This document shows positions 45,941 through 63,442 of a stretch of DNA of 64,000 nucleotides, piece by piece. The number at the start of each line of letters is the position of its first letter. Within the stretch, counting starts at the first letter, position 1. This DNA comes from an uncultured Spirochaetota bacterium (GTDB lineage: Bacteria; Spirochaetota; Brevinematia; Brevinematales; JAOACQ01), in contig CAVYGN010000002.1 of assembly GCA_963768055.1 (NCBI GenBank), positions 1,600,001-1,664,000 of the forward strand, in the 5' to 3' direction. The notes beneath the pieces were generated by a model. That model saw nothing but the letters and a program-made list of their open reading frames with translations. It did no database searches and was not told the DNA's origin. Position numbers and translations under genes: made by a program.

Positions 45941-46131
45941 TTTCACAACCTCACGATTTTTAAACACTTAATTATAACTTTTTTAATGAATATGTCTAAA
46001 AATTTCAACAAATTTGAAAAAATATTTTCAAATATTATTGACATTTAAAATAATGCAACATATTATATAATAATGTCTGTATTCATGGCATTTTTGCGAT
46101 AATTGTTATAATAATTTGCACAATTTAATTC

Positions 46132-46534: not shown

Positions 46535-47233
46535 ATGAAAAATAATCGTATTATTATTGGAATCATTGATAGTGGTGTCGACAGAAGGTTTATTATTGAA
46601 AATGGTGCTAAAATTAAAAAAGCGTCCGCATTTAATATAATACAAGAAAGCCGACTTGTAGAGTGTATTGAATATAGTAAAAAAGATATAAAAAAATGGC
46701 TAGCTGGAAAAATCGATCATATATCGGATGAACATGGCCATGGGACTTCTGTTCTTTCTATAATTTGGGGAATTTTACCCAATGCTGAATTCGTGGTTTC
46801 AAAGGTTCTTGACCATGAAAAAAAAGGATATTCGATATGCCTTGTAGAAGCGCTTCGTTGGATGATAGAAAAAACTGATGTCCTTATAATAAATATAAGC
46901 ATTACGACAAATGATACAAATATTAAGGATGATATGTTAAAACTTGTCAAAGAAGCAAAAAAGAAAGGTATAGTTATATATTCAGCGAAAGATAATGAAT
47001 ATAGTATACCTGCTTCTGTTGATGGTGTTGTTTCAGTAACTGATTTTTTAACAATAAATAAAGTCGGGCAATATTCTCTACTAAAATCGGACGTTGTAAT
47101 TGAAAAAAAGGAAGAATTAATTTGGTGGGAAGGCGAATGGATTCAAGATCCTATTAAACCAAGTTGGGCTTGTGCAGTAGCTGTTTCTAAAAAGTTTGAA
47201 ACTGGACATAATTTTAAAAAGAGATTTGTATGA
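46535..47233 (+). CDS. compact cytoplasmic S8 (subtilisin-like) peptidase
   Basis: IIDSG (Asp), DEHGHGT (His), IINIS, PSWAC (Ser); no signal peptide. Confidence 0.8.
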   Translation: MKNNRIIIGIIDSGVDRRFIIENGAKIKKASAFNIIQESRLVECIEYSKKDIKKWLAGKIDHISDEHGHGTSVLSIIWGILPNAEFVVSKVLDHEKKGYSICLVEALRWMIEKTDVLIINISITTNDTNIKDDMLKLVKEAKKKGIVIYSAKDNEYSIPASVDGVVSVTDFLTINKVGQYSLLKSDVVIEKKEELIWWEGEWIQDPIKPSWACAVAVSKKFETGHNFKKRFV

Positions 47234-49134
47234 AAAATAAAAATTTAAATTTACCATCTACATTCGTTTTAAAAAATTATACTTCTAAATATTATTTTGA
47301 TATTAATGCATTATTTTGGAACAGTTTATTCTCAGAAAAATATTTAACTAAAATTTTTCAAGAAATCAAACTTAGAAACAAAATAACAGATTTTGAGGAA
47401 ATTTATTTTGATTATCTTATTGTTAATATTTCAGCTATAAAAAGTATGATGTCTGATTGTTATGTCTATAAATATCTTGAAAAAAATGTCTATTTATGTT
47501 TTAAAGTATTCTATTTGATAGTAAACATATTTAACCTAATTAGTTCAGATCATAGAATTTCCTTGTCCTATGGAATATCTTACTTAAAAGATATCAGTAA
47601 TATTTCTTTAAGTATAAATAATATTTTTATAAATCAATTTTTTGATGATATACTGAATAACAGCTTTTTTGAAGATAATATTCAATATAATATAAATATT
47701 CATTGGGAAAATGAATTATATAGTTTAATTCTTTTATCTATTAAATTACGTGAAAAATTTAAAAATGTTAGAGTTATAGTGGATTTCAGTCAAGTAAATG
47801 AACAGGTAGATTTTACTCAATGGATTTCTAATAATAATATCAGACAATATATAGATAACTTTAATAATATATATCATGAAGATAATCATAAAATTATTAA
47901 TGCTAATTATCATATTGGTGACGTGTTTAAAACAAAAAATATAGGGACTAGATTATTCAATACAAAGTGTTATTGGAATAAATGTTCTTTTTGTACAATA
48001 AATTCAAGGCACAAATCTGATCATACTTTTAATTCATTAACAAAAGAAGCAAAAGAGATTGTTGATAGCTTTATTAAAAGTATTTTAAATTATAATGAAT
48101 TAATTTATATAACTTTTTCTGATGAAGCTATTGAAAGTTCAATATTATTATATTTTGCGGAGCAAATTATAAACCAAAACATTAATATAAAATGGATTGC
48201 AAGGACAAGATTTTCTAATATTTTTACTTATGAAAACTGTAAAACATTATCTCAATCTGGATTGAAAATGATTGGTTTGGGTCTAGAGTCTGTTAATCCG
48301 AGAATATTGAGTCTTATGAATAAAAGAGAAAAATTCTATGATACTCAAGAATTGAATCGTATTATTGGTAATTTCGACCAAAATAATGTAAGTGTACATA
48401 CATACTTTATTATTGGTTTCCCATCTGAAACGAAAAAAGAAACCAAGCAAACACTAAATTTCATTGATTATAATCTCAAAAAAAGAAAGTACTTTACATA
48501 TTCAGCTAATAGGTTTTATCTAATGAAAGGGTCGAAAATTTATAGTAATCCGAAGGAATTTGGAATTGAAATAATCGATAAAGGTGAAGATGTTAAAATA
48601 GGTAATATCAATTATATTGATCAAAATAAAGGTCATAAATACAGCAGAGAAGAAATATTATTTTTGTCTAAGAAAGCTTATTCGAAAATGTTTTTTAAAA
48701 AAGTTAATAACAATTATTTAATTATATTAGGATGTAATTTCTGGGATTTTATTGATAGAACAGCATTATTTTATATTCATAAATATTACAATGAATTGAA
48801 TCCTTATTTTAGAAGAAATAAAAAAAGGATAAAACTTCATGATGAAGATCTTGATTCATTTTATAAAATTATCAGCATTCCTATTTATAAATTAAATCCT
48901 TTGATATATTTTGATATTATTAATGATAGATATATTAGGATTAAAGAAATATTAAAAAATCTTTTTTATAAGTTTATTAATTCTTATAACACAAAATTAA
49001 CACTCAGACAGAATATTTATGAAATATTACAAAAATTAGATTATAAATGTTCTAATAAGCAAATTAATTTATTTAATAAAATGATAATTCAATTAATTGA
49101 TGATGCATACTTGTATAGGATTGAAAAATTGTAA
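47230..49134 (+). CDS. radical SAM protein, B12-dependent-class-like core
   Basis: CYWNKCSFC, FSDE, GLESVN.RIL.LM.K, IIGFPSET; overlaps the peptidase stop (ATGA). Confidence 0.85.
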   Translation: MKNKNLNLPSTFVLKNYTSKYYFDINALFWNSLFSEKYLTKIFQEIKLRNKITDFEEIYFDYLIVNISAIKSMMSDCYVYKYLEKNVYLCFKVFYLIVNIFNLISSDHRISLSYGISYLKDISNISLSINNIFINQFFDDILNNSFFEDNIQYNINIHWENELYSLILLSIKLREKFKNVRVIVDFSQVNEQVDFTQWISNNNIRQYIDNFNNIYHEDNHKIINANYHIGDVFKTKNIGTRLFNTKCYWNKCSFCTINSRHKSDHTFNSLTKEAKEIVDSFIKSILNYNELIYITFSDEAIESSILLYFAEQIINQNINIKWIARTRFSNIFTYENCKTLSQSGLKMIGLGLESVNPRILSLMNKREKFYDTQELNRIIGNFDQNNVSVHTYFIIGFPSETKKETKQTLNFIDYNLKKRKYFTYSANRFYLMKGSKIYSNPKEFGIEIIDKGEDVKIGNINYIDQNKGHKYSREEILFLSKKAYSKMFFKKVNNNYLIILGCNFWDFIDRTALFYIHKYYNELNPYFRRNKKRIKLHDEDLDSFYKIISIPIYKLNPLIYFDIINDRYIRIKEILKNLFYKFINSYNTKLTLRQNIYEILQKLDYKCSNKQINLFNKMIIQLIDDAYLYRIEKL

Positions 49135-49276
49135 CTTATATAATAATAAATAATAAAATTAAACGTAAAAACATATTAATTGACATTATGATTGAAAATT
49201 TTACAAACCTTATAAAGTTAAGATTTTTATTAATGAAATTCCCGGTTGGAGATAAAATAGGTAAAAAGGAGTATTT

Positions 49277-49516
49277 ATGAAGAAAAACCCTGTCAGGTTT
49301 TATGACATTCCTGAGTCATTAAAGGAAATTTATGCTCTTGGTTCTGGTAGCGGTAATAGTGGTTCTGTAGCAGGAGATTGTTGTTCTGTTACTAATACAA
49401 CTTCTACTTGTGGTTGTGTTGGCTGGATGGCAAGTGCTAATACAACTTGCCAGACTAATACTTTTTCCTCTGCATCATTCTTTAAGAAACCACCCGCAAA
49501 AAGAATAATTAAGTAA
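49277..49516 (+). CDS. putative RiPP precursor peptide (79 aa, 5 Cys, Ser/Thr/Gly-rich)
   Basis: AAGGAG RBS; charged leader, GS linker, core DCCSVTNTTSTCGCVGWMASANTTCQTNTF, basic tail; lies between radical SAM genes. Confidence 0.82.
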   Translation: MKKNPVRFYDIPESLKEIYALGSGSGNSGSVAGDCCSVTNTTSTCGCVGWMASANTTCQTNTFSSASFFKKPPAKRIIK

Positions 49517-49585
49517 TATCTTAAAACAATAATTTCAAGTTAATTATCTCCAGCTGGGAAAATTATATTAAAGAGAGAAAAGAAT

Positions 49586-50695
49586 ATGAAATATACAATA
49601 ATATTAACTCAAAAGTGCAATCTAGCATGTAAATACTGTTTTGAACATAATAAAGAGAATAATTATCTTAAAGAAAATATGATACCTTCAATCTTAGGAT
49701 TTATTAATTATTATCAAAATCAAGAATTTGTTTTAGATAAAAATATATCGATAGTTTTTAATGGCGGAGAACCACTTCTTAATTTTACAGTATTAAAAAA
49801 ATTACATATTGCTTTGGAAAAAATTGGTGTTAACGATTTTTCGATTTCTACAAATTTAACATTATTAACAGATGAAATTATTACTTATTTATATAATAAC
49901 AAGTTTATTTTACATATTAGCCTTGATGGAACTAAAGATATTCATAATAAAAACAGAATCTTCAAAGATGGAAAAGGAACATTTGATATTGTTTATAATA
50001 ATGTTGTGAAAATTAGGAAAAAATATCCTGATTGGAATAATTCATATAATATTACAATTTCTCCAGGCACTGTACATGATTTATATAATAGTTTTAGATT
50101 ATTAACAGATTTGGGTATAAGGAGAATTACAGCTGCATATTGTGCGGATTATGAAATGAATGAAAATAATATAGAAATATTCAAAAATGAAATGAGAAAA
50201 ATTAGTAAGGATTATATTGCTTTCTATGAAAATAATGAAAATATCTATTTTAAATTTTTAACCGATGGTATTTTATACACAATAAATAATAAAAAAGCAG
50301 CATGTGGAGTATGTAAGAGCGAAATTGCTATATTACCTTCAGGTGAAATATTGCCATGTGTGGTTTTTGTTGGACAAAATAATTATAGAGATTACATTTT
50401 AGGTACTTTGAATAGTTCATTGAATTATAATAAAATTAATATGCTTTTAGATAAGAAATTATTTAATTTGTCTGAATGTAATAATTGTAGTTTACTTCAA
50501 AGATGTTTTGTTGAATGTTATGCGGTAAACTTAAGAGTTATGGGGAATTTATTTGATATACCAGATTGCTATTGCCATATCAATCAGATTTGTTTACAAG
50601 AAGCTGAATATGTTATTAATGATTTATATAATAAAAAGAATAAACTATTTATTAATCAATATAATCTTAGCAAATTAAATAAAGAATCAATTTAA
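49586..50695 (+). CDS. radical SAM/SPASM peptide maturase
   Basis: CNLACKYC, FNGGEPLL, ISLDG, SPASM CG..GEILPC..CNNC.....CFVEC...CYC. Confidence 0.9.
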   Translation: MKYTIILTQKCNLACKYCFEHNKENNYLKENMIPSILGFINYYQNQEFVLDKNISIVFNGGEPLLNFTVLKKLHIALEKIGVNDFSISTNLTLLTDEIITYLYNNKFILHISLDGTKDIHNKNRIFKDGKGTFDIVYNNVVKIRKKYPDWNNSYNITISPGTVHDLYNSFRLLTDLGIRRITAAYCADYEMNENNIEIFKNEMRKISKDYIAFYENNENIYFKFLTDGILYTINNKKAACGVCKSEIAILPSGEILPCVVFVGQNNYRDYILGTLNSSLNYNKINMLLDKKLFNLSECNNCSLLQRCFVECYAVNLRVMGNLFDIPDCYCHINQICLQEAEYVINDLYNKKNKLFINQYNLSKLNKESI

Positions 50696-50714
50696 AATTA
50701 ATTGGGGAAATAAT

Positions 50715-51836
50715 ATGTATGGATTAATATTAACTGAGAGTTGTAATATGTCATGTAAATATTGTTTTGAAAAACATAAAAATTATGGTCGACAAATGAA
50801 TGATGAAATAATTATTAGTGCTGCTGATTATATTGTTAAAGACTATATAAATAAAGGTAAAGAAGATTATTTTGTAGTTAATATTACAGGTGGAGAACCT
50901 TTCCTTAAATTTGATCTTTTGAAAAAATTATTACTAGAAATAAAAGAGAAAATGAGTATTAATAAAATTAAGCAATATTCGTTTGAAATATCAACAAATG
51001 GTACAATAATAAACGAAGGTATAATAAAATTTATTATAAAAAATAATATTAGATTATTTGTTGGATTCGATGGTATTAAAAAAAGTTATAATGAAGGGCG
51101 TTTTTTTAAAGACCAACCAGGTGTTTATAATATTGTTTATAAAAATATTTTAATATTAAAAGAAAAGGTGAATAAAAATAATATTGTTTTGAATCTGGTT
51201 ATTACTCCAGAGAATGTACAATATTTAAATCAAAATATTAATTTTATGTATATTCTTGACTTACAAATGTCAATTACATTTGCTTATGAACAAGAGTGGA
51301 GTGAGAAATCTATTGTAATATTGAGAAAAGAGTTTCTAATATTTCTTAATTTTTATAAAGATATTGTTAAAACAAATCATGATTTTAGTATTGGATTAAT
51401 TGATAAAACTATAAAACAATGTTTATTTCCTCGTAATTATTATCCTGGTATATGTAGTGCTGCAGAACCCCAACTTGTTATTTTGACTGACGGCAACATT
51501 GTACCTTGTGGCAGTTTTTGTTATATACAGGATAATAATACTGATTTTATTATTGGAAATGTATTTCAAGGAATAGATGAGAATAAACGTTTAAAATTCA
51601 GAAAGTCATTAGAAAATATAGATTTTGAGGAATGTAAAGGTTGTTTATTTATAAATAAATGTACTAATTACTGTACTGCCATAAACTATCTTGTAACAAA
51701 TAATACTCAAGAAATACCAAGTTCTGTTTGTGAAATTAATAAAATATTGATTACCGGATGTGAATTATTAATTGATAATTTGACTAAAGAAAATAGTAAC
51801 TATATAAAAGAGAAATATTTAAAAGAGGTTGATTAA
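50715..51836 (+). CDS. second radical SAM/SPASM peptide maturase
   Basis: CNMSCKYC, TGGEP, STNG, SPASM CSA..GNIVPC..CKGC.....CTNYC...C. Confidence 0.9.
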   Translation: MYGLILTESCNMSCKYCFEKHKNYGRQMNDEIIISAADYIVKDYINKGKEDYFVVNITGGEPFLKFDLLKKLLLEIKEKMSINKIKQYSFEISTNGTIINEGIIKFIIKNNIRLFVGFDGIKKSYNEGRFFKDQPGVYNIVYKNILILKEKVNKNNIVLNLVITPENVQYLNQNINFMYILDLQMSITFAYEQEWSEKSIVILRKEFLIFLNFYKDIVKTNHDFSIGLIDKTIKQCLFPRNYYPGICSAAEPQLVILTDGNIVPCGSFCYIQDNNTDFIIGNVFQGIDENKRLKFRKSLENIDFEECKGCLFINKCTNYCTAINYLVTNNTQEIPSSVCEINKILITGCELLIDNLTKENSNYIKEKYLKEVD

Positions 51837-54179
<2,343 letters not shown>

Positions 54180-54257
54180 TAAAATACAATGATATCTTAA
54201 TGGTAAAATTATTTAATTTGTTGATTTGGAATAAATATTTAAGGAATTGGAGGCTAT

Positions 54258-54761
54258 ATGTTGGATTTGGCTTATTTAAATATTGGAACTTTGAAACAAT
54301 TGTATATGCAGTACATCAAAAAAAATGAAAATAAGTATTATTTGATTGACTTCTTTAGTAACTACGATATTCAAATCGATCCAAATGATTGGAATCGAAT
54401 TCAATATGTTAGTAAAGATTTTAACGGTAATATCATTGCTTATTTTGAAGCAAGAATAAATCGAGGATTTAATATTATTAATGATTTAGAAATATTAAAA
54501 TTTATTGAATATCCCAATATAATATGGATTCATGATTTTATCAGATTTCTCAAAGTGTTATTGCTTGAAAAAAACTTCAGAAAAGTGGTTTTTTATGCTA
54601 TCATAGACAACCCATCTTTTACAAAATGTGAACTATATTTATTGAAGTATAAATTGGTTAAAGAAGTTGGTGTAATGAAAAACCATTGTATTCTTAATGA
54701 TGGAAAAATTTATGATATGAAAATTTTTGAGATTGAAAGAGATAATTTAGGAAAATGGTAG
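54258..54761 (+). CDS. GNAT-family N-acyltransferase (RimJ/RimL-like)
   Basis: GNIIAY, NFRKV.F....NP, EVG.MK.H..L.DGK.YD..IFEI; GGAGG RBS. Confidence 0.8.
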   Translation: MLDLAYLNIGTLKQLYMQYIKKNENKYYLIDFFSNYDIQIDPNDWNRIQYVSKDFNGNIIAYFEARINRGFNIINDLEILKFIEYPNIIWIHDFIRFLKVLLLEKNFRKVVFYAIIDNPSFTKCELYLLKYKLVKEVGVMKNHCILNDGKIYDMKIFEIERDNLGKW

Positions 54762-54767
54762 AAAATA

Positions 54768-55541
54768 ATGATTTTTAATATTTTATTAAAACTATCAATA
54801 AGAAATCTTTTTCGTCATAAAACAAAGAATCTGCTCGTTGTCCTTATGATCATGACGGGCTGTTCCCTGTTTTTTATAGCTTCCTCGCTTGAATGGAATA
54901 TCAGGGATAACTGGAGGCATTACCTTTCAGATACGGTCTTGGGAGATTACTATATAACTTCGATAACGGGGATCGGCGACGATTACCGTTTTTTTAACAC
55001 TGTCCCGCCGCTGAAATTTATCAATAAGGAAATTATTGATTTTCTCGACAGGAATAAAATTCAATATTCATGCAGGATAAGGACCGGGGCAAAGTATTAT
55101 GATGAGAAGCTCGGGTTTCGGGATTTCAACAAATTCCTCGGTATAGATTTTTTAAAGGAGGAAAAGATCCTCTCCAATATATTGATTTATGACGGCACAT
55201 TCGAACCTGCCTCAGATAACGGCATGGATTTTTTCTGGAATCCTTCCTGGAATTATCAGCCGCCGGTCGGGACAAACCTTGTGGTATTAATTCTTGCACT
55301 TGCCGGATATCTGATTGGTGTATTCATCGGTGCTTTGTCAGGCAGTATAATTGAAAATATGCGGATATACCTGGTGTTCCAGGATTATATGAACGGACCT
55401 GTAATGTTCATTCATTCCTTTTGGGATTTTCTCTACATACTGCTGTTCATATTATTACTGACAGCGGTTTGGAGCATTCCGGTAATTAACCGGATCGTCT
55501 CGAAAGCCCCCGCGAGGGTATTCAGGGAACAATCGTATTAA
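54768..55541 (+). pseudogene. FtsX/MacB-type ABC permease, internally deleted
   Basis: Typical N-terminus LSIRNLFRHK.K and partial periplasmic domain joined directly to the last TM helices; 257 aa versus the usual ~400 or more. Confidence 0.6.
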
Positions 55542-55552
55542 TTGGAGTATTT

Positions 55553-56326
55553 ATGAAGAATTGGATTTTACTTATTACAGCGGCAGTATTAACGGCGGTC
55601 TATTCATTATCTTATTGTATCGATCCGGGCGATGTTATTTCTAAATCCGATAAGCGATTTATACCGGATATATTCACTTATAACATGACCCTCCGGACTA
55701 CTTCGGCAAACGGCAAGATTGATGTAGTGGATTATAAGGGGAAAAAGAAACACGAAAATAATATAATGATCACAATAAATCCGGTCAGTGCAAGGGGGCA
55801 GGTCAACCTGAAAAACAGGAACGTGATATGGAGTTACTTTCCTACCTCGGATACAAGTATAAAGTATAGCTACCAGGCAATAATCCTGGGGACGTCGGTA
55901 AGTTACGGCGACATCCTGGCGCTTGAGCTTTCCCGCGATTATGACGTCCGGTCGATGATCGAAACCTCGAGCCTCGAAACCAATGGCCTCGAGGATCCGG
56001 CCTCGACGAATAAGTTTTATCTGCTGACGCTTGGGCCTAAAAAAGATGTCGACGGATATGCGAAAATATTTTTGTGGATAAATACGGCGAACTTTCTGCC
56101 TGTTAAGAGGCAGTACTACGCTTTATCCGGGCTCCTGGTGAAATCCTGCGAGATACAGGGTATTTCCTTCGATGATAAAGGCGTTGTAAGCGAGTGTAAA
56201 GAACTGTTTTATGAACCCCTGAAACAAAAGCAAACCCTGGTAACCTTTTCCAATGTTATTATTATGAGTGATATTCGCGATAAGACATTCAATCCGAAAG
56301 CTATGAAATTTTTCAGCGGAGAGTGA
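55553..56326 (+). CDS. outer-membrane lipoprotein-sorting (LolA-like) protein
   Basis: Signal peptide; IWSYFP, ILGT.VSYGD, Y.LTL.PK..Y.KI.LWI...FLP.K..YY..SG.L.K. Confidence 0.78.
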   Translation: MKNWILLITAAVLTAVYSLSYCIDPGDVISKSDKRFIPDIFTYNMTLRTTSANGKIDVVDYKGKKKHENNIMITINPVSARGQVNLKNRNVIWSYFPTSDTSIKYSYQAIILGTSVSYGDILALELSRDYDVRSMIETSSLETNGLEDPASTNKFYLLTLGPKKDVDGYAKIFLWINTANFLPVKRQYYALSGLLVKSCEIQGISFDDKGVVSECKELFYEPLKQKQTLVTFSNVIIMSDIRDKTFNPKAMKFFSGE

Positions 56327-57579
56327 ATTTGATTAAAATTTCAATCTTTATCCTTCTGCTTTTTCTTCCCATGGAGCTATTTTCATTGGATATAAGCTCA
56401 GTCATAAACACCGGTTTCGATGTTCAATCGGTTAACAGCAATTCGCTGCTTTACCCGCTGAATTTGCTTCAGAGCGGGGGTTACACGAACGAGGGCTTCG
56501 ATTACTATGTCAATGCCGATGTAATAATGAAAAGCGCGATGGGCGAGATCGGGAAGGGTTATCTGGATGTCAGATTCAGTTATTATCCGAAAACATTTCT
56601 TACAAATACCCCCTGGCAGTATTTTAATATTGTTGAGGGTTATGCTGACCTGGCGACCGAGGACTTTTTGCTGCGCATAGGGAAGCATTTCATGCACTGG
56701 GGCGATGGGGTCGCTTTTAATCCCGTCGATATAGTGGATTTGAGAAAAGATCCCCTGTCATATACCGGATATGACCAGGGGAAGCCGGGGGCTGATATAA
56801 CGGTTCCCATAGGTGATTTCAGTTCTTTTTCAGCTTTAAGCGTTGTCGACAGCACATTAACTACGAACATTGACAATCTGCCTGCCATATTGCAATATTT
56901 CTTATCGATAGATATGTTCGACGGGTTTATATTCGCCGATTTTCAGAAGAATTACAAGCCCGAATATGGCGGCAACATCGATTATGTCATGTCTGTAAAA
57001 AATAATATAAATTTAAAACTATATTCCCAATTAACCTACAGAGAGGACAGCTACCGTGAGTTCGCCGCCGAAACGAATGGAGTTCCGTACCTTGAAAATA
57101 TGACCAACAATTACTACGCTGCCTGGGCTGTAGGCGGTAATCTTACCTTTTCTTTTACAGAGACGCCGTTGATCGACGGTATAATAATTTCCGCCGAATA
57201 TTATTACGATGACGAGAACTGGAGCAAAAACGCTTATCAGAATTTCCTGTCGTATATAGATGCGCAGACGAATAATAATAATGTTCCCGCATATATGAAC
57301 GCTATGCTGCAGGAGCAATACCTCAGGAATTCTAAAAGCTATTTTTTTTCAGCGCTTACTTTCCAGGGGCTGTTTGATAAAGATTTCAGCCTGACCGGTT
57401 CTGTGGTCCTTAACATTGACGATCTGAGTTTTGTAATTTATCCCTCGATGTCGTATCAGATCAACCTGGATACCAGGATATCGATAGGAGCCCAGTTTTT
57501 TTGCGGCGGCCAGGACAGCGAATTCGGCAGTATGTCGCAGCTTTTTTCCGTAAACGCCAATTTAACGGTTTCATTTTGA
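56323..57579 (+). CDS. putative outer-membrane beta-barrel protein
   Basis: EGYAD..LRIGK...WG.G..FNP.D, SEFG, C-terminal LTVSF. Confidence 0.65.
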   Translation: MNLIKISIFILLLFLPMELFSLDISSVINTGFDVQSVNSNSLLYPLNLLQSGGYTNEGFDYYVNADVIMKSAMGEIGKGYLDVRFSYYPKTFLTNTPWQYFNIVEGYADLATEDFLLRIGKHFMHWGDGVAFNPVDIVDLRKDPLSYTGYDQGKPGADITVPIGDFSSFSALSVVDSTLTTNIDNLPAILQYFLSIDMFDGFIFADFQKNYKPEYGGNIDYVMSVKNNINLKLYSQLTYREDSYREFAAETNGVPYLENMTNNYYAAWAVGGNLTFSFTETPLIDGIIISAEYYYDDENWSKNAYQNFLSYIDAQTNNNNVPAYMNAMLQEQYLRNSKSYFFSALTFQGLFDKDFSLTGSVVLNIDDLSFVIYPSMSYQINLDTRISIGAQFFCGGQDSEFGSMSQLFSVNANLTVSF

Positions 57580-57595
57580 AACAAAGGAGCATCTC

Positions 57596-58266
57596 ATGAT
57601 TAAAATCAGTGGTGTAGAAAAGACCTATTATCTTGGAAAATCTACGATCGAGGCGTTGAAGGGAATAAATGCAGCTTTTAATAAAGGCGAATTTACATCC
57701 GTGGTCGGGCCGTCGGGCAGCGGAAAATCCACGCTGCTTAACATTATAGGCTGCCTTGACAGGCCTGATCGGGGAGAGGTAGTAATAAGCGGTGAAAATA
57801 TTACCTCTTTAAAAAGCAACAGGCTTGCCGATATCAGGGCCGAAAAGATAGGCTTTATATTTCAGTCCTTTAACCTTATACCTGTCCTAATGTATATGAA
57901 AATATCGAGCTGCCTTTGAATAATATTAATAAATACAAATCGAAAAAGGAAAAGAGGGACAGGATCATAGAACTCATAGAGCATGTAGAGCTTGGCTGTT
58001 ATTTAAAGCACAGGCCTGAGGAGCTTTCAGGAAGCCAGAGGCAGCGCGTGGCTATCGCCAGGGCCCTGGTTACGAATCCTGAAATAGTCCTTGCCGACGA
58101 ACCGACGGCAAACCTCGATTCTGAAACAGGCAGGATGATAATAGAACTCATGAGAAAGATCAACAGGGACTACGGCACTACATTTATATTTTCAACCCAT
58201 GACTTGAATATAATGAAATATGCCGAAAGAGTGTTAAATCTAAAGGATGGAAGAATTTTTAACTGA
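57596..58266 (+). pseudogene. LolD/MacB-type ABC ATPase with 1-bp frameshift
   Basis: GPSGSGKST; one missing A near 57889 breaks IPVLNVYENIELP; second half has LSGSQRQR, LADEPT, STHD. Confidence 0.85.
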
Positions 58267-58309
58267 TATTTAATATGGTTTCATAACATAATTAAAAAGA
58301 GGTATTTCT

Positions 58310-58843
58310 ATGCTAGAACTAGCATACTTAAATCAAGAAAAGTTACAAGATATTTATTCAAAAAGGATTACTTCTAAATTTAATAAGTATTATTTTTTTG
58401 AAAGTTATTATGATTATATTTTACCAATTGACCAAAATGATGAAAAAAAAATACAATACGTTGGAAAAGATAATGAAGGCAATATAATCGGCTATGCAGG
58501 TGCATGGATTAATCGTACTCATAATATTATTGAAAGGATGGAAATAATAAATTTTACAGAAAAGCCAAAATTAGAAGGATCAAGGAATTTATTTGATTTT
58601 CTAGAAATTATTCTTATCAAAAAGAATTTTAGAAAAATTGTTTTTTATGTGGCTGTAGAAAATCCAGCTATTAAATTGTATGAGAAATTCATGAATTTTG
58701 GAGAAGGAATAGGGAAAAAAGTTGGTATTTTAAAAGAACATTATACTCTAAATGATGGAAAGAATCATGATGTTGCTATATTTGAAATTTACAGGGAAGG
58801 TTTTACAGAATGGTTTAGAAAAAAAATAAAAAAAGACTTTTAA
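58310..58843 (+). CDS. GNAT-family N-acyltransferase (paralog of 54258-54761)
   Basis: MLELAYLN vs MLDLAYLN; IQYV.KD..GNII.Y; ENPAIKLYEK; VG.LK.H..L.DGK. Confidence 0.82.
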   Translation: MLELAYLNQEKLQDIYSKRITSKFNKYYFFESYYDYILPIDQNDEKKIQYVGKDNEGNIIGYAGAWINRTHNIIERMEIINFTEKPKLEGSRNLFDFLEIILIKKNFRKIVFYVAVENPAIKLYEKFMNFGEGIGKKVGILKEHYTLNDGKNHDVAIFEIYREGFTEWFRKKIKKDF

Positions 58844-58911
58844 TTAAAAAGATTGAAAAATAGAGAATAAAATATTTTGGATTTTTTTAGATAAAAAAGA
58901 GGAGGATTTTT

Positions 58912-59172
58912 ATGATAAAAGAAGATTTCAAAAACATTAATGAATTAATATTTGAACTAAAGAAAATGATTTCAAGTCAAATCAAATTACAAGGAGAAGA
59001 TTTCGATGAAAATAAGGATTTTGTCTCCGACTATGGAGTAGATTCTCTTGATTTGCTTTTATTGATTTCGGAAATAGAAGATATTATGAAAGTGAGAATC
59101 GAAACAGAAGATGCTGAAAAGATGAGGACTTTTGCAGATGTAAGAAAATATGTTGAGAGTAAATATTTATAA
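58912..59172 (+). CDS. acyl carrier protein
   Basis: Acidic 86-aa protein with GVDSLD phosphopantetheine site; GAGGAGG RBS. Confidence 0.92.
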   Translation: MIKEDFKNINELIFELKKMISSQIKLQGEDFDENKDFVSDYGVDSLDLLLLISEIEDIMKVRIETEDAEKMRTFADVRKYVESKYL

Positions 59173-59236
59173 ATATATCGAATAGTATATAAAGAATGTA
59201 TTATCAAAATATAAAAAATAAAGAGTAAATAATATT

Positions 59237-60448
59237 ATGAGAGTTTATGTTGGTAGTCTGGGTATAATTGTTTCAAATGGGAAAAATATTCTTGATTTCA
59301 GCAATAATATATTTGCCGGGAAATCTGGGATTAAAAAGTTGTCCAATGATGATTACTCTGATATTCCTGTTAGGATTGGAGGTGAAATTATAAATGATTG
59401 GCTTAAAGATTCCGATCTTTCTGAAGAAAGATCTTGGACATTATTGGAAATTGCTGCAGATGAGGCTATAAAGATACAAAAAAATAAAATCTTTAAGTTA
59501 GAATCAGACAGGATAGGTGTTTTTGTTGGGACATCATATGCTGGATCAAATACTATACTAGAGAATTATAAGCATTATTTAAATAAAGAAATATACAAAG
59601 TTTCTCCGTTGACAATGATTAAAGCTATGCGATATTATGCTGCCAGTAATTTAGCCAGAAAATATAAAATCGAAGGTCCCTTACTGGCTTATGATACAGC
59701 TTGTTCTTCTTCACTTCATGCTTTAGGCAATGCTTATAAAATGATTCATTCAAATTTGTTGGATTTAGCTATAGTTGGAGGGGTAGAAACACCACTAACA
59801 CCAACAAGTATCATATGCTGGGACCGTTTACGGATTTTGGCTAATAATGAAGATAATCCGGATAAAGCCTCCTCTCCTTTTGATAAAAAAAGTCCTGGTA
59901 TTGTGTTGGGTGAAGGAGCGGGTGTTATAATCCTTCTAAGTGAGGATGTTATGAATAAAATGGATATTCCACCTTTGGCTGAAATTGCAGGATATGGCTA
60001 TTCTAATGATCCAACGCACATTACTAAATCTAATTTTAAATATATGATAAAATCTATGCAAAAAGCATTATCAGATTATCCCGGACTCAAAGATACAATT
60101 AATTATATTCAAGCTCATGGTACGGGAACTAAGATAAATGATATGGAAGAAGCAAGAGCGATAAATACATTATTTGGTAATCAATCTAATAATATTAAGG
60201 TTAATTCAATAAAATCAATGGTTGGCCATTTGCTTGGCGGCAGCGGAATAATTTCGGCAATAACTACTATTATACAGATTAAGGAAAAGAAATTACACCC
60301 TAATCTAAATCTTGAAGATCCATATAATGATTACCAAATTAACTATGTTGGGGCAAATAAGGAAAGTTGGAATATATGTGTGGGCATTGTAAATGCATTT
60401 GCATTTGGTGGAAGCTTTGCTTCGATATTGATTAAGTATGTGAACTGA
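59237..60448 (+). CDS. beta-ketoacyl-ACP synthase II-like ketosynthase (FabF-like)
   Basis: Cys-His-His triad TACSSS, AHGTGT, KSMVGH; NAFAFGG. Confidence 0.93.
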   Translation: MRVYVGSLGIIVSNGKNILDFSNNIFAGKSGIKKLSNDDYSDIPVRIGGEIINDWLKDSDLSEERSWTLLEIAADEAIKIQKNKIFKLESDRIGVFVGTSYAGSNTILENYKHYLNKEIYKVSPLTMIKAMRYYAASNLARKYKIEGPLLAYDTACSSSLHALGNAYKMIHSNLLDLAIVGGVETPLTPTSIICWDRLRILANNEDNPDKASSPFDKKSPGIVLGEGAGVIILLSEDVMNKMDIPPLAEIAGYGYSNDPTHITKSNFKYMIKSMQKALSDYPGLKDTINYIQAHGTGTKINDMEEARAINTLFGNQSNNIKVNSIKSMVGHLLGGSGIISAITTIIQIKEKKLHPNLNLEDPYNDYQINYVGANKESWNICVGIVNAFAFGGSFASILIKYVN

Positions 60449-60472
60449 ACCAAAATGAAATTAGAATAATAT

Positions 60473-62269
60473 ATGAAATTAATAGCGATAAATAAAAAAG
60501 ATTGGCCCCTGATAAAAAGAGCATTTAACTATGTTAAACCGAATAAATTCAAATTTGCATTTTCTTTTTTCCTTCTACTTGTAGGAATTAGTTTTAATTT
60601 AATTCTCCCTTACTTATGGGCAAAAATTATTGCCTGTATTTTTAATAAAGATTATAATACTTTAATATTTATTGTAATCTCTATTACTATTGTACTAATA
60701 ATACAATCTATATATGGGCTTTTACAAAATTATGTTTCAACTTCATTATATCAAGAAATAGTTTACAATGTCAAAAAAGACATGTACAAAAAAATTTTAG
60801 ATTTACCTATGAAAGCATTTGATCAACTACGTGCAGGTGATTTTATTTCAAGGTTACAAGGTGATGCAAACACAATTTCTCAGGTTATTACAGGACAATT
60901 CTTAAACTCGGTTGTTGACGTATTAAAAATAATAACATTTGGAATAGCTGTTTTCTGCATTAACCTGCCCATGGCGATAATGCTTTTAATAACTTTTCCT
61001 TTGTCATTAATTGTATTTATTAAATTTGGCAAGCTTATGCGAGAGAAAAACAAGGAAATGGCAGAAATGAATGATAATTATTTTAGCAATGTACATCAGT
61101 CAATAACTGGTATAAGGGAAATAAAGGGATTGGGAATTAAAAATCAAAATTACTTGACTTTTATATCATTATTAAAATTGATGAAAGAAAAAGTTATTAA
61201 CATAAACATCTTTGGAGGAATATCCCAGCTTATTACACAGACTTTCAACTACATTTCAGAAATTGGGGTGATAATTGTTGGAGCATATCAAATATACAAA
61301 GGTTTTTTAAAAATAGAGTTCTTCATAACTTTTACATCATATTCTATTCAATTTTCTGAATCAATAATGAATATTAGTAATTTAAATAATAATATTCAAC
61401 AAGCAATGACTTCTTTAGAAAGAATATTTGGTATTATGGATAATTTGAATTATCAGGAATATAATTATGGAAATTTGAATTTAAAAAACATTGAAGGAAA
61501 TATAAAATTTGATGGTATTACATTTGGGTATAATGAAAACTCGAATATTTTGAATAATGTTTCTTTTGAGATCCAGAAAAATAAAAAAATAGCTATTATA
61601 GGAAAAAGTGGTAGTGGAAAATCAACAATATTTAACCTTATACAAAATTTTTATAAACCTCAATTGGGAAAAATTCTAATTGATGACATAGAACTCAATA
61701 AATTAAGTGAAGATTGCTTAAGGGAACATATTTCAATAGTCAGGCAAGAACCTTTCCTTTTTAATTTATCAATTAAAGATAATTTGTTACTTGTTAATCC
61801 AACTGCTAAAGATGATGATGTAATTAACGCTTGTAAATTAGCTTTTATTCATGAATATATTTCAAATTTACCTGAAGGCTATAATACTTTAGTACAAGAT
61901 GGTGGAGCAAATTTCTCGGTAGGGCAAAAGCAAAGGATAGCTATTGCTAGAGTTTTATTGAAAAATACAAAAATAATATTATTTGATGAAGCAACTTCTT
62001 CATTAGATAATGAATCTCAATATTATATTAAAAAGGCCATTGACAATCTTTCATTAAATCATACGGTAATAATTATTGCCCATAGATTACTAACTTTTAT
62101 TGAAAGTGATGAAATAATTTTACTTGATAAAGGAATTATTGCCGGTATTGGCAATCATTCAACTTTGATTAAAAATAATGAAATCTATAATTTGTTATAT
62201 CATATGGAATTGGATACTTATAATAAAAGTCAAAATCTTTCTTTGTTAAAAGATGTCAACACTTTTTAA
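60473..62269 (+). CDS. ABC exporter, fused permease and ATPase
   Basis: Six-TM domain; GKSGSGKST, FSVGQKQR, FDEATSSLD, IAHRL; no N-terminal C39 peptidase domain. Confidence 0.93.
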   Translation: MKLIAINKKDWPLIKRAFNYVKPNKFKFAFSFFLLLVGISFNLILPYLWAKIIACIFNKDYNTLIFIVISITIVLIIQSIYGLLQNYVSTSLYQEIVYNVKKDMYKKILDLPMKAFDQLRAGDFISRLQGDANTISQVITGQFLNSVVDVLKIITFGIAVFCINLPMAIMLLITFPLSLIVFIKFGKLMREKNKEMAEMNDNYFSNVHQSITGIREIKGLGIKNQNYLTFISLLKLMKEKVININIFGGISQLITQTFNYISEIGVIIVGAYQIYKGFLKIEFFITFTSYSIQFSESIMNISNLNNNIQQAMTSLERIFGIMDNLNYQEYNYGNLNLKNIEGNIKFDGITFGYNENSNILNNVSFEIQKNKKIAIIGKSGSGKSTIFNLIQNFYKPQLGKILIDDIELNKLSEDCLREHISIVRQEPFLFNLSIKDNLLLVNPTAKDDDVINACKLAFIHEYISNLPEGYNTLVQDGGANFSVGQKQRIAIARVLLKNTKIILFDEATSSLDNESQYYIKKAIDNLSLNHTVIIIAHRLLTFIESDEIILLDKGIIAGIGNHSTLIKNNEIYNLLYHMELDTYNKSQNLSLLKDVNTF

Positions 62270-62344: not shown

Positions 62345-62376
62345 ACATGTGAGATAATTCTCATTATCTCACATGT
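62345..62376. other. palindromic site upstream of tyrosine recombinase (probable recombination core)
   Basis: ACATGTGAGATAAT-tctc-ATTATCTCACATGT, perfect 14-bp arms. Confidence 0.7.
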
Positions 62377-62515: not shown

Positions 62516-63442
62516 ATGGAAATTAATCCCACAATGCCGACCGTTTTTAAGGGAGTTATCCGGCCAAAACATTATACCAAATTCTGTCGTTTTCTCGGGA
62601 ACAGCAGCCAGACAATCAGATCTTATATGACTTCTTTAAAGGCTTTCAAAATATTTATAAACAAAGATATATACCAGGTAACAAAAAAAGACGTCTTTGA
62701 TTATCATGTTTATCTGGAAGTTCAGACTTCGGAATTCAAATTGGCGGCCTCTACTGCTCGCCTCCGGTGGTATGCCCTTAATAAATTTTTCAAGCTGGCT
62801 ATGGCTGAAAATTGGATAAGGTATAATCCAATGGTTGAAGTTGAAAAGATTTCGTCAAATTTAAAATTGCCCTCAGCTATAAATGATATTGAACTTCCTT
62901 TAGTTGATGGCAAAAGTTTTAATCGGGAAATAATAAATAAGGCAATTGAATTATCTGAAGATCAGCGTCTCACAATAATAATAAAGCTATTATCAAGGAC
63001 CGGTGCCAGAGTTTCGGAAGTACTAGGGTTGAAGTGGGGTCATGTGATCACCTTTGGAAATGATGTGATTTATACATTTCTAGGAAAAGGTAAACGAATC
63101 CGGGATGTAAAAGACTTTGATGGGAAACAGCTATTTGAAGAAATGAAATTAGTATTCAGCCCTGAAAGAACAAATCGGGATGATTTTATCTTTATAAATG
63201 AAAAAGGAAGAGTATTCAAATACAGTGCTCTTTATATGAGAATACGCTGTCTTTTTGAAAAAAACTTTTCTACAGATCGCCCTGTTTCCCCGCACAAGTT
63301 CAGGCACTTTCTTATAACCTATCTTTTAAATGAAGTTAAACTACCCTTAAAAACTGTTCAGAAAATTGTCGGTCACAGATTCTCAATGACGACAATAAGA
63401 TATGACCACCCTCCGGAAATAAAATATAATGTAGGGGTTTAA
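62516..63442 (+). CDS. XerC/D-like tyrosine recombinase
   Basis: SAM-like N-domain; TGARVSE, GKG, PHKFRH, VGH, TTIRY (complete R-K-H-R-H-Y set). Confidence 0.92.
   Translation: MEINPTMPTVFKGVIRPKHYTKFCRFLGNSSQTIRSYMTSLKAFKIFINKDIYQVTKKDVFDYHVYLEVQTSEFKLAASTARLRWYALNKFFKLAMAENWIRYNPMVEVEKISSNLKLPSAINDIELPLVDGKSFNREIINKAIELSEDQRLTIIIKLLSRTGARVSEVLGLKWGHVITFGNDVIYTFLGKGKRIRDVKDFDGKQLFEEMKLVFSPERTNRDDFIFINEKGRVFKYSALYMRIRCLFEKNFSTDRPVSPHKFRHFLITYLLNEVKLPLKTVQKIVGHRFSMTTIRYDHPPEIKYNVGV

What the first reader, a model, noticed from the sequence alone, without database searches (positions are those of the whole stretch)
46535..62269. Hybrid radical-SAM RiPP / fatty-acyl cluster predicting an acylated, crosslinked peptide
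Seen: one co-oriented run with an S8 peptidase, a B12-class-like rSAM, a 79-aa Cys-rich peptide, two rSAM/SPASM enzymes, an exported hydrolase, two GNATs, ACP, a FabF-like ketosynthase and an ABC exporter; a thioesterase is transcribed divergently. Known: GNATs transfer acyl chains onto RiPPs in goadvionin-type lipolanthines and in selidamides; rSAM/SPASM enzymes make sacti/ranthipeptide thioethers; clostridial Cys-rich-peptide (CcpM-type) loci pair an rSAM with S8 and ACP-like genes. Inference: no lanthipeptide dehydratase or YcaO is present, so rings would come only from rSAMs and the acyl chain from a dedicated ACP+KS. I do not recognise this combination as a characterised class. No KR/DH/ER is seen, so the acyl group may be a beta-keto unit or be finished by host FAS.
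Basis: partly seen in the sequence, partly recalled or inferred. Interest (0 to 1): 0.92.

Follow-up and report, generated by a model that had tools for sequence, protein, structure and literature searches.

The report
Radical-SAM peptide cluster with fatty-acyl genes
A spirochaete-type genomic island carries one long operon that joins enzymes for cross-linking a small ribosomal peptide with genes for making, attaching and exporting a fatty acyl chain, which probably yields a kind of lipopeptide not yet described, although no chemistry has been shown.

Summary
The gene run is real. "Exported hydrolase" is unproven.

The order rSAM/SPASM x2, 780-aa protein, GNAT-like 1, Lol-like block, GNAT-like 2, ACP, KS, ABC exporter recurs in one Brevinematales MAG (L001). 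There the block is intact and housekeeping genes follow the exporter. A homologue of the 634-aa rSAM lies on the same MAG contig. A third metagenomic contig probably carries both a GNAT-like protein and a 634-aa rSAM homologue.

The GNAT-like proteins have a confident GNAT fold but belong to a family absent from Pfam (789 cluster representatives). The 634-aa rSAM resembles cobalamin-dependent rSAMs and ends in an RRE-like domain, which the two SPASM enzymes lack.

Best reading (about 0.5): a RiPP/fatty-acid hybrid in which an rSAM-cross-linked peptide is N-acylated from a dedicated ACP. GNAT-lipidated RiPPs are known, so this is a new variant of a known kind. I found no rSAM-based case in print. 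Acylation is inferred only.

The parts
46535..47233 (+). Short (232 aa) subtilisin-like S8 peptidase, QhpE-like. Candidate leader peptidase.
   Evidence: Pfam PF00082 38.6 bits. NCBIfam QhpE 58.8 bits, below its cut-off of 165. Asp12 (DSG), His69 (HGT) and Asn154 were seen. Residues 60-156 align with the corresponding region of subtilisin BPN', which takes in the His and Asn but not the candidate Ser (SWA at 210).
47230..49134 (+). 634-aa radical SAM enzyme with the architecture of cobalamin-dependent (class B) rSAMs and a C-terminal RRE-like domain. Chemistry unknown; methylation is the default guess.
   Evidence: PF04055 at residues 250-412. A CX4CX2C motif (C247, C252, C255) is invariant in 22 of 22 aligned homologues. 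AF2 model: pLDDT 85.3, pTM 0.89. Top Foldseek PDB hits are OxsB, MgmA, CysS, TsrM, TokK, AprD4 and MiaB/RimO, E 7e-7 to 1e-4. Residues 544-630 fold as beta-beta-beta-alpha-alpha-alpha. A 58% identical homologue lies on the L001 contig.
49277..49516 (+). 79-aa precursor peptide. Cys at 35, 36, 45, 47 and 58 in a Thr/Asn/Ser-rich stretch. Gly/Ser-rich linker before it. Basic tail with Lys70, 71, 75 and 79.
   Evidence: ORF with an AAAGGAG site 6 nt upstream. No Pfam or NCBIfam family. Leader/core boundary not determined.
49586..50695 (+). rSAM/SPASM peptide maturase 1. Lacks an N-terminal RRE.
   Evidence: NCBIfam PapB 177.6 bits (cut-off 340) and QhpD 134 bits. CX3CX2C at residues 11-18 plus 11 further Cys. 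Nearest solved chain is 5wgg_A, E 2e-24, with query residue 7 aligned to chain residue 103.
50715..51836 (+). rSAM/SPASM peptide maturase 2. 31% identical to maturase 1. Also lacks an RRE.
   Evidence: PapB 177.4 bits and CXXX-repeat family 127.8 bits. Pfam SPASM 23.4 bits. 5wgg_A E 3.5e-23, aligned from chain residue 103. Paralogy shown.
51837..54179 (+). 780-aa protein with an N-terminal hydrophobic segment, a CarboxypepD_reg-like domain, a large unassigned middle domain and a C-terminal PDZ. Possibly a periplasmic Tiki/ChaN-type hydrolase (lead only).
   Evidence: PDZ_2 19.3 bits and CarbopepD_reg_2 17.8 bits, both below cut-off. The L001 orthologue is 30% identical, with conserved GELH, LESG, RD and YG.AHG blocks. 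Atlas leads PF04187 (score 0.78) and DUF5694 (0.77) are both under the 0.9 level.
54258..54761 (+). GNAT-like protein 1 (167 aa). Carries Cys where the family has a near-invariant Tyr.
   Evidence: 43% identical to GNAT-like 2 and 69% to its L001 orthologue. The Tyr124 column is Cys in both GNAT-1 orthologues. The two form a separate clade with support 100.
54768..55541 (+). Remnant FtsX-type permease. An in-frame chimera of the N-terminus of permease 1 and the C-terminus of permease 2; about 1.7 kb is missing relative to L001.
   Evidence: tblastn: residues 1-180 match L001 4764-5303 and residues 173-257 match L001 6967-7221. The blastn break falls at the same place. Pfam FtsX 21.6 bits, below cut-off.
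55553..56326 (+). LolA_like periplasmic carrier with a signal or lipoprotein-type N-terminus.
   Evidence: PF17131 78.1 bits. 68% identical to L001. N-terminus seen.
56323..57579 (+). 418-aa probable outer-membrane barrel, with a signal peptide and a C-terminal Phe.
   Evidence: No Pfam family. Atlas score 0.98 to unnamed clusters of 414-433 aa. The nearest named clusters are DUF1302 (0.96; carried by 41% of members) and porin O/P (0.94). Termini seen.
57596..58266 (+). LolD/DarD-like ABC ATPase. Split by a 1-nt deletion near 57889, and the signature motif reads LSGSQ.
   Evidence: Two ORFs of 107 and 116 aa. The DNA alignment to the intact L001 gene shows one missing base. The intact L001 protein scores LolD 235 bits (cut-off 307.75) and DarD 229 bits (cut-off 375).
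58310..58843 (+). GNAT-like protein 2 (177 aa). Candidate N-acyltransferase.
   Evidence: Pfam Acetyltransf_1 22.6 bits (cut-off 20.7). AF2 pLDDT 94.6. At least 373 Foldseek PDB matches at E<=0.001; the top ones are SpeG N-acetyltransferases, E 7.6e-11, TM 0.69-0.72. Family Tyr124 and Asn118 are present.
58912..59172 (+). Dedicated acyl carrier protein with a DSL motif (Ser45).
   Evidence: PF00550 40.2 bits. NCBIfam ACP models 45-53 bits, below their cut-offs.
59237..60448 (+). FabF-like elongating ketosynthase.
   Evidence: PF00109 and PF02801. FabF TIGR03150 308 bits, below its cut-off of 493.75. Best PDB match 1j3n, E 2.2e-61, with the Cys (TACSS), His (AHGTGT) and His (GHLLG) motifs aligned.
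60473..62269 (+). Half-size ABC exporter (TMD plus NBD). No C39 peptidase domain.
   Evidence: PF00664 and PF00005. MsbA 375.9 bits and HlyB 361.6 bits, both below cut-off. 74% identical to L001, where it is the last gene of the cluster.
45446..45967 (-). YbgC/FadM-type acyl-CoA thioesterase, divergent from the cluster. Membership uncertain.
   Evidence: TIGR00051 85.9 bits, above its cut-off of 68.7. Its stop overlaps the start of the histidine kinase gene.
43609..45446 (-). Histidine kinase (44217-45446) and response regulator with an XRE-type HTH (43609-44220). Possible regulators.
   Evidence: HATPase_c, Response_reg and HTH_3. The link to the cluster rests on position only.
62345..62376 (.). 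14-bp-stem palindrome just after the exporter; terminator-like end of the operon.
62516..63442 (+). Tyrosine recombinase following the operon in the low-GC segment (context, not pathway).
   Evidence: PF00589 76 bits. GC falls after tRNA-Ser 30317-30406.

Best explanation
The run is one operon for a ribosomal peptide/fatty-acid hybrid.

Shown:
- Gene content and tight co-orientation.
- Conservation of the gene order in a second genome.
- The GNAT fold.
- An intact KS catalytic triad and the ACP serine.
- Absence of an RRE in the two SPASM enzymes, and an RRE-like domain in the 634-aa rSAM.

Inferred:
1. The 79-aa peptide is bound through its leader by the RRE-like C-terminal domain of the 634-aa rSAM. 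That enzyme adds a class-B-type modification, most simply a methyl group.
2. The two RRE-less PapB/CteB-like rSAM/SPASM enzymes link the five Cys to side-chain or backbone carbons of the Thr/Asn/Ser-rich core, forming ranthipeptide- or sactipeptide-type thioethers.
3. The QhpE-like S8 protease removes the leader.
4. The FabF-like KS extends an acyl chain on the dedicated ACP. The host FAS supplies malonyl loading and the reductive steps.
5. GNAT-like 2 transfers the chain to an amine of the peptide, either the new N-terminus or a Lys of the basic tail. GNAT-like 1 (Tyr replaced by Cys) may be a second acyltransferase or a non-catalytic partner.
6. The MsbA/HlyB-like ABC protein moves the lipopeptide across the inner membrane. 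Where it is intact, the LolCDE/LolA-like block with its outer-membrane barrel carries the lipopeptide through the periplasm to or across the outer membrane.

In this window that last block is damaged, so export may stop at the ABC exporter, or the pathway may be decaying.
For: - Co-orientation, with all gaps under 150 nt.
- L001, a Brevinematales MAG, has the same order from rSAM/SPASM 1 to the ABC exporter. The 816-aa gene there ends at 4228 and the GNAT-1 ORF is called from 4229. Housekeeping genes follow the exporter.
- A homologue of the 634-aa rSAM (58% identity) is on a contig of the same length as L001's, 45468.
P0217 lies on the other side of the deepest split in the family tree.
- GNAT fold: pLDDT 94.6; Foldseek E 7.6e-11.
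- KS triad and ACP Ser.
- The SPASM enzymes align from residue 103 of 5wgg. PapB's RRE is residues 1-86 (PMC12715619, passages).
- RRE-like topology at residues 544-630 of the 634-aa rSAM.
- The QhpD/QhpE pairing is precedented (PMC8172795, passages).
- GNATs that transfer ACP-bound or FAS-derived acyl groups to RiPPs are precedented (PMC8784127 discussion passage; bioRxiv 10.1101/2023.10.25.564083 passages).
Against: - No chemical evidence of any step.
- Only two full or near-full loci, both apparently from one order, so the synteny may reflect shared descent rather than selection. The third locus rests on a contig-length match alone.
- The precursor gene of L001 was not seen, because the flank limit was reached.
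- The two halves differ in conservation between the genomes. The RiPP half is 30-58% identical. The part from GNAT-1 to the exporter is 62-86% identical.
- The Lol-like block has a different GC3 (0.45-0.51) from the other cluster genes (0.13-0.24).
- The nearest structural neighbours of the GNAT-like protein are small-molecule polyamine acetyltransferases.
- No malonyl transferase, KR, DH or ER is in the cluster.
- The Lol-like block is broken in this genome.
Confidence: 0.5

Rival explanations
1. Two independent neighbours. One is a ranthipeptide-type RiPP operon, from S8 to the 780-aa protein. The other is a lipid or lipo-amine pathway, in which GNAT-like enzymes N-acylate a small amine such as a polyamine or amino acid with an ACP-borne chain. 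That product is exported by the ABC protein and the Lol-like block.
For: - The two halves differ sharply in conservation between the two genomes: 30-58% against 62-86% identity.
- blastn finds a continuous 69% nucleotide match only from 54226 onward.
- The top structural matches of the GNAT-like protein are SpeG polyamine N-acetyltransferases.
- LolA_like proteins and DUF1302-like barrels suggest transport of hydrophobic small molecules. The functional link is recalled, not tested.
Against: - Same order and abutting genes in both genomes.
- A probable third contig pairs a distant GNAT-like member with a 634-aa rSAM homologue.
- No terminator-like site lies in the 78-nt gap between the two halves; the nearest site found is inside the next gene, at 54854.
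Confidence: 0.25
2. The GNAT-like proteins only acetylate. They would carry out N-terminal acetylation of the peptide or self-protection. The ACP and KS would serve another purpose, such as membrane lipid remodelling for producer tolerance.
For: - N-acetylation by GNATs is known for LAPs, lasso peptides and graspetides (bioRxiv 10.1101/2023.10.25.564083, discussion passage).
- The proteins are small (167-177 aa), with RimJ/RimL-like and SpeG-like neighbours.
Against: - GNAT-like 2, ACP and KS are adjacent (gaps of 68 and 64 nt) in the same order in both genomes.
- By eye, the usual pyrophosphate-binding glycine loop of CoA-using GNATs is not conserved in the family consensus. This is a weak inference.
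Confidence: 0.1
3. In this particular genome the cluster is a decaying, horizontally acquired copy that no longer makes or exports its product. This is compatible with any of the readings above for the intact form.
For: - About 1.7 kb is deleted, fusing the two permease genes.
- A 1-nt deletion splits the ATPase, and its signature motif is altered.
- The cluster lies in a low-GC segment after tRNA-Ser, with two recombinase genes and an IS21 element.
Against: - The other 11 genes of the run are full-length open frames with their catalytic motifs intact.
- The single-base lesion could be a sequencing error.
- The ABC exporter is intact.
Confidence: 0.3

Closest known systems
Ranthipeptides and the QhpD/QhpE system (freyrasin PapA/PapB, thermocellin CteA/CteB, QHNDH gamma-subunit maturation)
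   Same: The two rSAM/SPASM enzymes score best against PapB, then QhpD, CcpM and SCIFF maturases. Their nearest solved chain is 5wgg, which I recall to be CteB. The substrate contains Cys. A QhpE-like small subtilase lies next door (PMC8172795, passages).
   Different: Scores are about half of the PapB cut-off. Both enzymes lack the N-terminal RRE. There are two paralogous maturases plus a class-B-like rSAM. The core has no CX3D or SCIFF pattern. GNAT, ACP, KS and Lol-like genes are attached. The organism is a diderm.
Lipoavitides (RiPP/fatty-acid hybrids; FabH-type non-modular FAS plus the GNAT LpvE)
   Same: The logic matches: a ribosomal peptide, a few stand-alone FAS-type enzymes in the cluster, and a GNAT that N-acylates the peptide after leader removal (bioRxiv 10.1101/2023.10.25.564083, abstract and passages).
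   Different: Lipoavitides have an AviMeCys macrocycle and FabH (KS III) chemistry. Here the scaffold enzymes are rSAM/SPASM, the KS is FabF-type with its own ACP, and the GNAT-like proteins belong to a family without a Pfam model. Relatedness to LpvE was not tested.
Goadvionins and lipolanthines
   Same: A GNAT transfers an ACP-bound chain made by cluster-encoded machinery to the peptide N-terminus (PMC8784127, discussion passage).
   Different: Those clusters use PKS/FAS assembly lines and avionin/lanthionine rings. No such enzymes are present here.
Selidamides (kamptornamide, phaeornamide, nostolysamides)
   Same: GNAT-catalysed fatty acylation of a Lys or Orn side chain of a RiPP. The precursor here has four Lys in its C-terminal tail (PMC13647313 introduction).
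   Different: Selidamide clusters take acyl donors from primary metabolism and contain class II lanthionine synthetases. Here a dedicated ACP and KS are present, and rSAMs are the ring-forming enzymes.
LolCDE/LolA lipoprotein sorting and MacB-type RiPP exporters (darobactin DarD)
   Same: In L001 there are two FtsX-type permeases, a LolD/DarD-like ATPase (235 and 229 bits) and a LolA_like periplasmic protein.
   Different: All scores are below the equivalog cut-offs. An unnamed outer-membrane-barrel-like protein takes the place of LolB or a TolC-type channel. The block sits inside a biosynthetic operon, and it is broken in this window.
NodF/NodE and AcpXL/FabF-XL cassettes (recalled, not checked in any call)
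   Same: A dedicated ACP with a FabF-like KS and no KR/DH/ER, relying on the host FAS, feeding a specific N- or O-acyltransferase.
   Different: The acceptors there are a chito-oligosaccharide or lipid A, not a ribosomal peptide.

Membership tests
PapB-family ranthipeptide maturase (NCBIfam NF047865) | Score at or above the curated equivalog cut-off (340 bits) | tested here: not met
   177.6 and 177.4 bits. L001 rSAM2 scores 151 bits.
rSAM/SPASM peptide maturases | CX3CX2C radical SAM motif plus a Cys-rich SPASM extension for auxiliary clusters | tested here: met
   CX3CX2C at residues 11-18 and 10-17. A further 11 and 10 Cys follow. Pfam SPASM 23.4 bits in the second enzyme. Full-length alignment to the PapB model in both.
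rSAM/SPASM peptide maturases | N-terminal RiPP recognition element fused to the enzyme, as in PapB residues 1-86 | tested here: not met
   Both proteins begin at the radical SAM motif. Matches start at model or chain positions 81-103 of RRE-bearing relatives (PMC12715619, passages).
Ranthipeptides (product class) | Thioether from Cys sulfur to a non-alpha carbon | not testable with these tools
   Needs MS/NMR of the modified peptide.
GNAT superfamily | GNAT fold | tested here: met
   AF2 pLDDT 94.6. Foldseek gives at least 373 PDB matches at E<=0.001, the top ones N-acetyltransferases. Only 2 of 88 family members reach Pfam Acetyltransf_1 at E<=0.01.
RiPP-lipidating GNATs (GdvG, LpvE, KspN/PhaN/NpuN) | Sequence membership of one of those clades | not tested
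   No sequence of these enzymes was available from a tool.
RiPP-lipidating GNATs | Transfer of a medium or long acyl chain to a peptide amine | not testable with these tools
   Needs an enzyme assay.
Cobalamin-dependent (class B) radical SAM enzymes | Recognisable B12-binding domain (Pfam PF02310) N-terminal to the rSAM core | tested here: not met
   Only PF04055 was found, even at E<=5. More distant homologues do carry PF02310.
Cobalamin-dependent (class B) radical SAM enzymes | Overall fold closest to solved cobalamin-dependent rSAMs | tested here: inconclusive
   The top Foldseek hits are OxsB, MgmA, CysS, TsrM and TokK. AprD4 and MiaB/RimO also appear. TM scores are only about 0.3.
FabF (beta-ketoacyl-ACP synthase II, TIGR03150) | Cys-His-His catalytic triad | tested here: met
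   Aligned with 1j3n. Positions.
FabF (beta-ketoacyl-ACP synthase II, TIGR03150) | Score at or above the equivalog cut-off (493.75 bits) | tested here: not met
   308.3 bits. It is a divergent, probably specialised KS.
LolCDE/LolA lipoprotein-release system | Two intact FtsX-type permeases plus a LolD ATPase above cut-off | tested here: not met
   Window: chimeric permease remnant and frameshifted ATPase. L001: genes intact, but LolD scores 235 bits against a cut-off of 307.75.
Tiki/ChaN/TraB-type hydrolases (for the 780-aa protein) | Paired GxxH motifs with conserved Glu and Arg (motif recalled from memory) | tested here: inconclusive
   GELH, LESG, RD and YG.AHG blocks are conserved between the two orthologues. 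Atlas leads PF04187 and DUF5694 score under 0.8. No HMM match.

The most novel reading that the evidence does not exclude
The intact form of this system makes a 'ribosomal lipoprotein mimic'. A small rSAM-cross-linked peptide would be N-acylated in the cytoplasm by members of a large, uncurated GNAT-like family, using a dedicated ACP/KS-made chain. An MsbA-like ABC protein would then flip it. A private LolCDE/LolA-like machine with its own outer-membrane barrel would extract it and deliver it to the outer membrane or the cell surface. This would be a route to surface-anchored lipopeptides independent of Lgt/Lsp/Lnt. The GNAT-like family (789 cluster representatives) would then mark a widespread, unrecognised class of lipidated rSAM RiPPs.
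Probability: 0.2. Interest if true: 0.85.

Novelty: new variant of a known kind. Interest (0 to 1): 0.62.

Why it matters
Ribosomal lipopeptides are sought as engineerable alternatives to non-ribosomal drugs such as daptomycin and polymyxin. According to the papers read here, all characterised GNAT-lipidated RiPPs sit on lanthionine/avionin-type, AviMeCys or lasso scaffolds.

An rSAM thioether scaffold combined with a dedicated ACP/FabF pair would add:
- a new scaffold/lipid combination;
- a new GNAT-like enzyme family for site-specific peptide acylation;
- in the intact relative, an unusual link between RiPP biosynthesis and Lol-type envelope sorting in a diderm bacterium.

It also gives a concrete test case for trans-acting leader recognition, with the RRE on one rSAM serving two RRE-less SPASM enzymes.

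Tried and rejected
- **Word-index search, GNAT-like 2.** It found only 3 proteins among 94 candidates. This suggested an orphan. The exhaustive HMMER search overturned that: 789 representatives at E<=1e-3, 441 at 1e-10 and 22 at 1e-30.
- **PDB sequence searches with the GNAT profiles.** Nothing significant: best E 0.076 for A1 and 0.0066 for A3. Fold comparison was needed.
- **Longer family members.** Ten were scanned for fused domains. None was informative. Seven had no family, one had a weak PRTase match and one a weak Acetyltransf_4 match.
- **Genome scan.** Of 60 pattern matches, 1 confirmed locus.
- **Profile search with A3.** It returned only 10 proteins. Of the 7 that are not the window, L001 or P0003, 1 shares a contig length with a 634-aa rSAM homologue and 6 do not.
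- **Plasmid collection.** No match for GNAT-like 2. The 634-aa rSAM gave only 6 partial rSAM-core matches.
- **Island boundaries.** No att-like direct repeat linking tRNA-Ser to the recombinase end of the low-GC segment was found.
- **780-aa protein.** No hydrolase family by HMM.
The queue was full each time and the tool was then declared unavailable. Nothing was folded.
- **Literature.** Searches found no paper describing an rSAM/SPASM RiPP with GNAT, ACP and KS. Subscription journals and bioRxiv supplements were not searchable, and MIBiG/antiSMASH could not be run.
- **Considered and rejected.** The Lol-like block is not a foreign insertion between duplicated GNAT genes. L001 has the block, intact, in the same place.

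Full report
**What is in the sequence**

From 46535 to 62269 there are fifteen co-oriented open frames. Two of them are the halves of one split gene. No gap between them exceeds 150 nt. Profile searches give the following, in order:
- a short S8 subtilase whose best NCBIfam match is QhpE (58.8 bits, below cut-off);
- a 634-aa radical SAM protein;
- a 79-aa ORF with a strong ribosome-binding site and five Cys;
- two paralogous rSAM/SPASM enzymes, 31% identical to each other, whose best matches are PapB (about 177 bits against a cut-off of 340), QhpD, CcpM and SCIFF maturases;
- a 780-aa protein with a hydrophobic N-terminus and a C-terminal PDZ;
- a 167-aa protein with no Pfam match;
- a 257-aa FtsX fragment;
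- a LolA_like protein;
- a 418-aa protein with a signal peptide and a C-terminal Phe;
- an ABC ATPase split into two ORFs;
- a 177-aa protein that just passes Pfam Acetyltransf_1;
- an ACP;
- a FabF-like ketosynthase with its Cys-His-His triad aligned to solved FabF;
- an MsbA/HlyB-like ABC exporter without a peptidase domain.

A YbgC/FadM thioesterase is transcribed divergently. It is coupled to a histidine kinase and a response regulator. No lanthipeptide, YcaO, KR, DH or ER domain was found between 41 and 64 kb. The 'hydrolase' label is unproven, and the four-gene transport block at 54768-58266 was missed.

**Genomic setting**

A tRNA-Ser lies at 30317-30406. GC drops after it. The following 33 kb hold two tyrosine recombinases, an IS21 element and the cluster. 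No att repeat was found.

Host core genes have a GC3 of 0.53-0.56. Most cluster genes have 0.13-0.24, but the Lol-like block has 0.45-0.51. I cannot explain this mosaic.

**Related loci**

The word-index search found only two relatives of the 177-aa protein. A genome scan with their alignment returned one locus, L001, from a Brevinematales MAG. L001 carries, in the same order:
- a partial rSAM/SPASM 1 (42% identity);
- rSAM/SPASM 2 (37%);
- the large PDZ protein (30%);
- GNAT-like 1 (69%);
- two intact FtsX permeases;
- the LolA_like protein (68%);
- the 416-aa protein (65%);
- an intact ATPase (85%);
- GNAT-like 2 (76%);
- ACP (62%);
- KS (71%);
- the ABC exporter (74%);
- then housekeeping genes.

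The exporter is therefore the 3' end of the unit, and the transport block is an original part of it. A 58% identical homologue of the 634-aa rSAM lies on a contig of the same length as L001's, so the upstream part is probably conserved as well. The precursor there was not seen.

Relative to L001, the window has lost about 1.7 kb, which fuses the two permease genes in frame. It also has a one-base deletion in the ATPase and an altered signature motif. The transport block is decayed in this genome, unless the single-base lesion is a sequencing error.

**The GNAT-like proteins**

The exhaustive HMMER search found 789 cluster representatives at E<=1e-3 (441 at 1e-10, 22 at 1e-30). Only 2 of 88 aligned members reach Pfam Acetyltransf_1. 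PDB sequence searches are marginal.

The AlphaFold model of the 177-aa protein is confident (pLDDT 94.6) and is a GNAT fold. At least 373 PDB matches fall at E<=0.001. The best are SpeG N-acetyltransferases at E 7.6e-11 and TM about 0.7. The family keeps a near-invariant Asn118 and Tyr124. I recall these positions as the CoA-contacting Asn and the general-acid Tyr of GNATs.

Both GNAT-1 orthologues carry Cys at the Tyr position. They form their own clade, separated from the GNAT-2 clade by metagenomic sequences (quick tree). The duplication therefore predates these two genomes.

A profile search returned ten proteins. This is probably a third, more distant co-occurrence. It rests on that coincidence alone. 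The other six non-Brevinematales hits showed no such match.

**The 634-aa rSAM**

Twenty-two homologues share an invariant CX4CX2C motif. No B12-binding Pfam domain is detected. The model (pLDDT 85.3) is closest to the cobalamin-dependent rSAMs OxsB, MgmA, CysS, TsrM and TokK. It also matches AprD4 and MiaB/RimO, with low TM scores. 'Class-B-like' therefore holds for architecture only.

Its last ~90 residues (544-630) fold as three strands and three helices. I recognise this topology as that of PqqD-type RiPP recognition elements.

The two SPASM enzymes start directly at the radical SAM motif and align from residue 103 of 5wgg. PapB has an RRE at residues 1-86 (PMC12715619, passages). I infer that leader recognition is supplied in trans, by the 634-aa enzyme.

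**Other parts**

The 780-aa protein and its orthologue share GELH, LESG, RD and YG.AHG blocks. Two weak atlas leads point to ChaN-type families. This fits a recalled Tiki/ChaN/TraB motif pattern, but it is only a lead.

The 418-aa protein resembles unnamed 414-433-aa clusters from several diderm phyla (score 0.98). The nearest named family is DUF1302 (0.96). This is consistent with an outer-membrane barrel.

**Mechanism**

The best reading is a RiPP/fatty-acid hybrid. The steps would be leader-guided rSAM modification and thioether formation, leader removal by the QhpE-like protease, chain extension on the dedicated ACP by the FabF-like KS with host FAS help, and N-acylation by the GNAT-like enzyme(s). 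Export would then go through the ABC protein and, where intact, the Lol-like machine. Every chemical step is inferred.

The main rival is two adjacent but independent systems. It draws on three things: the different conservation of the two halves, the compositional mosaic, and the polyamine-acetyltransferase neighbours of the GNAT fold.

**Comparison and novelty**

GNAT-lipidated RiPPs are established. They include selidamides, lipolanthines, goadvionins, lipoavitides and aphotorhaptins (PMC13647313, introduction read) and lipolasso peptides (bioRxiv 10.1101/2024.12.31.630886, abstract listing only). Lipoavitides already combine stand-alone FAS enzymes with a GNAT (bioRxiv 10.1101/2023.10.25.564083, passages).

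Five full-text searches found no description of an rSAM/SPASM scaffold with GNAT, ACP and KS, nor of a Lol-like block inside a RiPP cluster.

I rate this a new variant of a known kind. Interest is moderate to high, pending context statistics and mass spectrometry.

Noticed in passing
window 54768-58266: The Lol/MacB-like block has a host-like GC3 (0.45-0.51), while every flanking cluster gene has 0.13-0.24. The same block carries both lesions: the permease fusion and the ATPase frameshift. In L001 the whole cluster is compositionally uniform. This may be a mosaic or gene conversion; it is unexplained.
   Followed up: partly
window 47230-49134 and 21 homologues (alignment A4): The 634-aa rSAM family has an invariant CX4CX2C motif instead of the canonical CX3CX2C. 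Two tandem paralogues occur in a Candidatus Margulisbacteria MAG.
   Followed up: partly
window 54258-54761 and L001 4229-4759: Both GNAT-like 1 orthologues replace the family's near-invariant Tyr with Cys. This suggests a non-catalytic partner or a different mechanism.
   Followed up: partly
window 2628-9422: A second radical SAM neighbourhood lies next to a Tn3-family transposase (79-2166). It holds a MarR regulator, a B12-binding rSAM (best match the ladder-lipid type TIGR04072, 230 bits, below the cut-off of 360), a CPBP-protease-like protein, an rSAM/SPASM protein and an Lnt-like N-acyltransferase (116 bits, below the cut-off of 132.9).
   Followed up: partly
window 35494-36000: Six copies of an 18-nt core (consensus ending TTGAGGCATGATT), mostly spaced about 104 nt apart, in a non-coding stretch of the low-GC segment. 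They are iteron-like; function unknown.
   Followed up: no
window 37148-39701: An IS21-family element (IstA-like 38011-39561, IstB 37234-37995) flanked by 51-nt imperfect inverted repeats.
   Followed up: no
window 30317-32751: tRNA-Ser is followed by a fall in GC and a tyrosine recombinase (31684-32751, minus strand), which suggests an integrated element. No matching att repeat was found within the window.
   Followed up: partly
window 62345-62376: A perfect 14-bp-stem palindrome lies between the ABC exporter and the second recombinase gene. It could be a terminator or a recombinase site.
   Followed up: no
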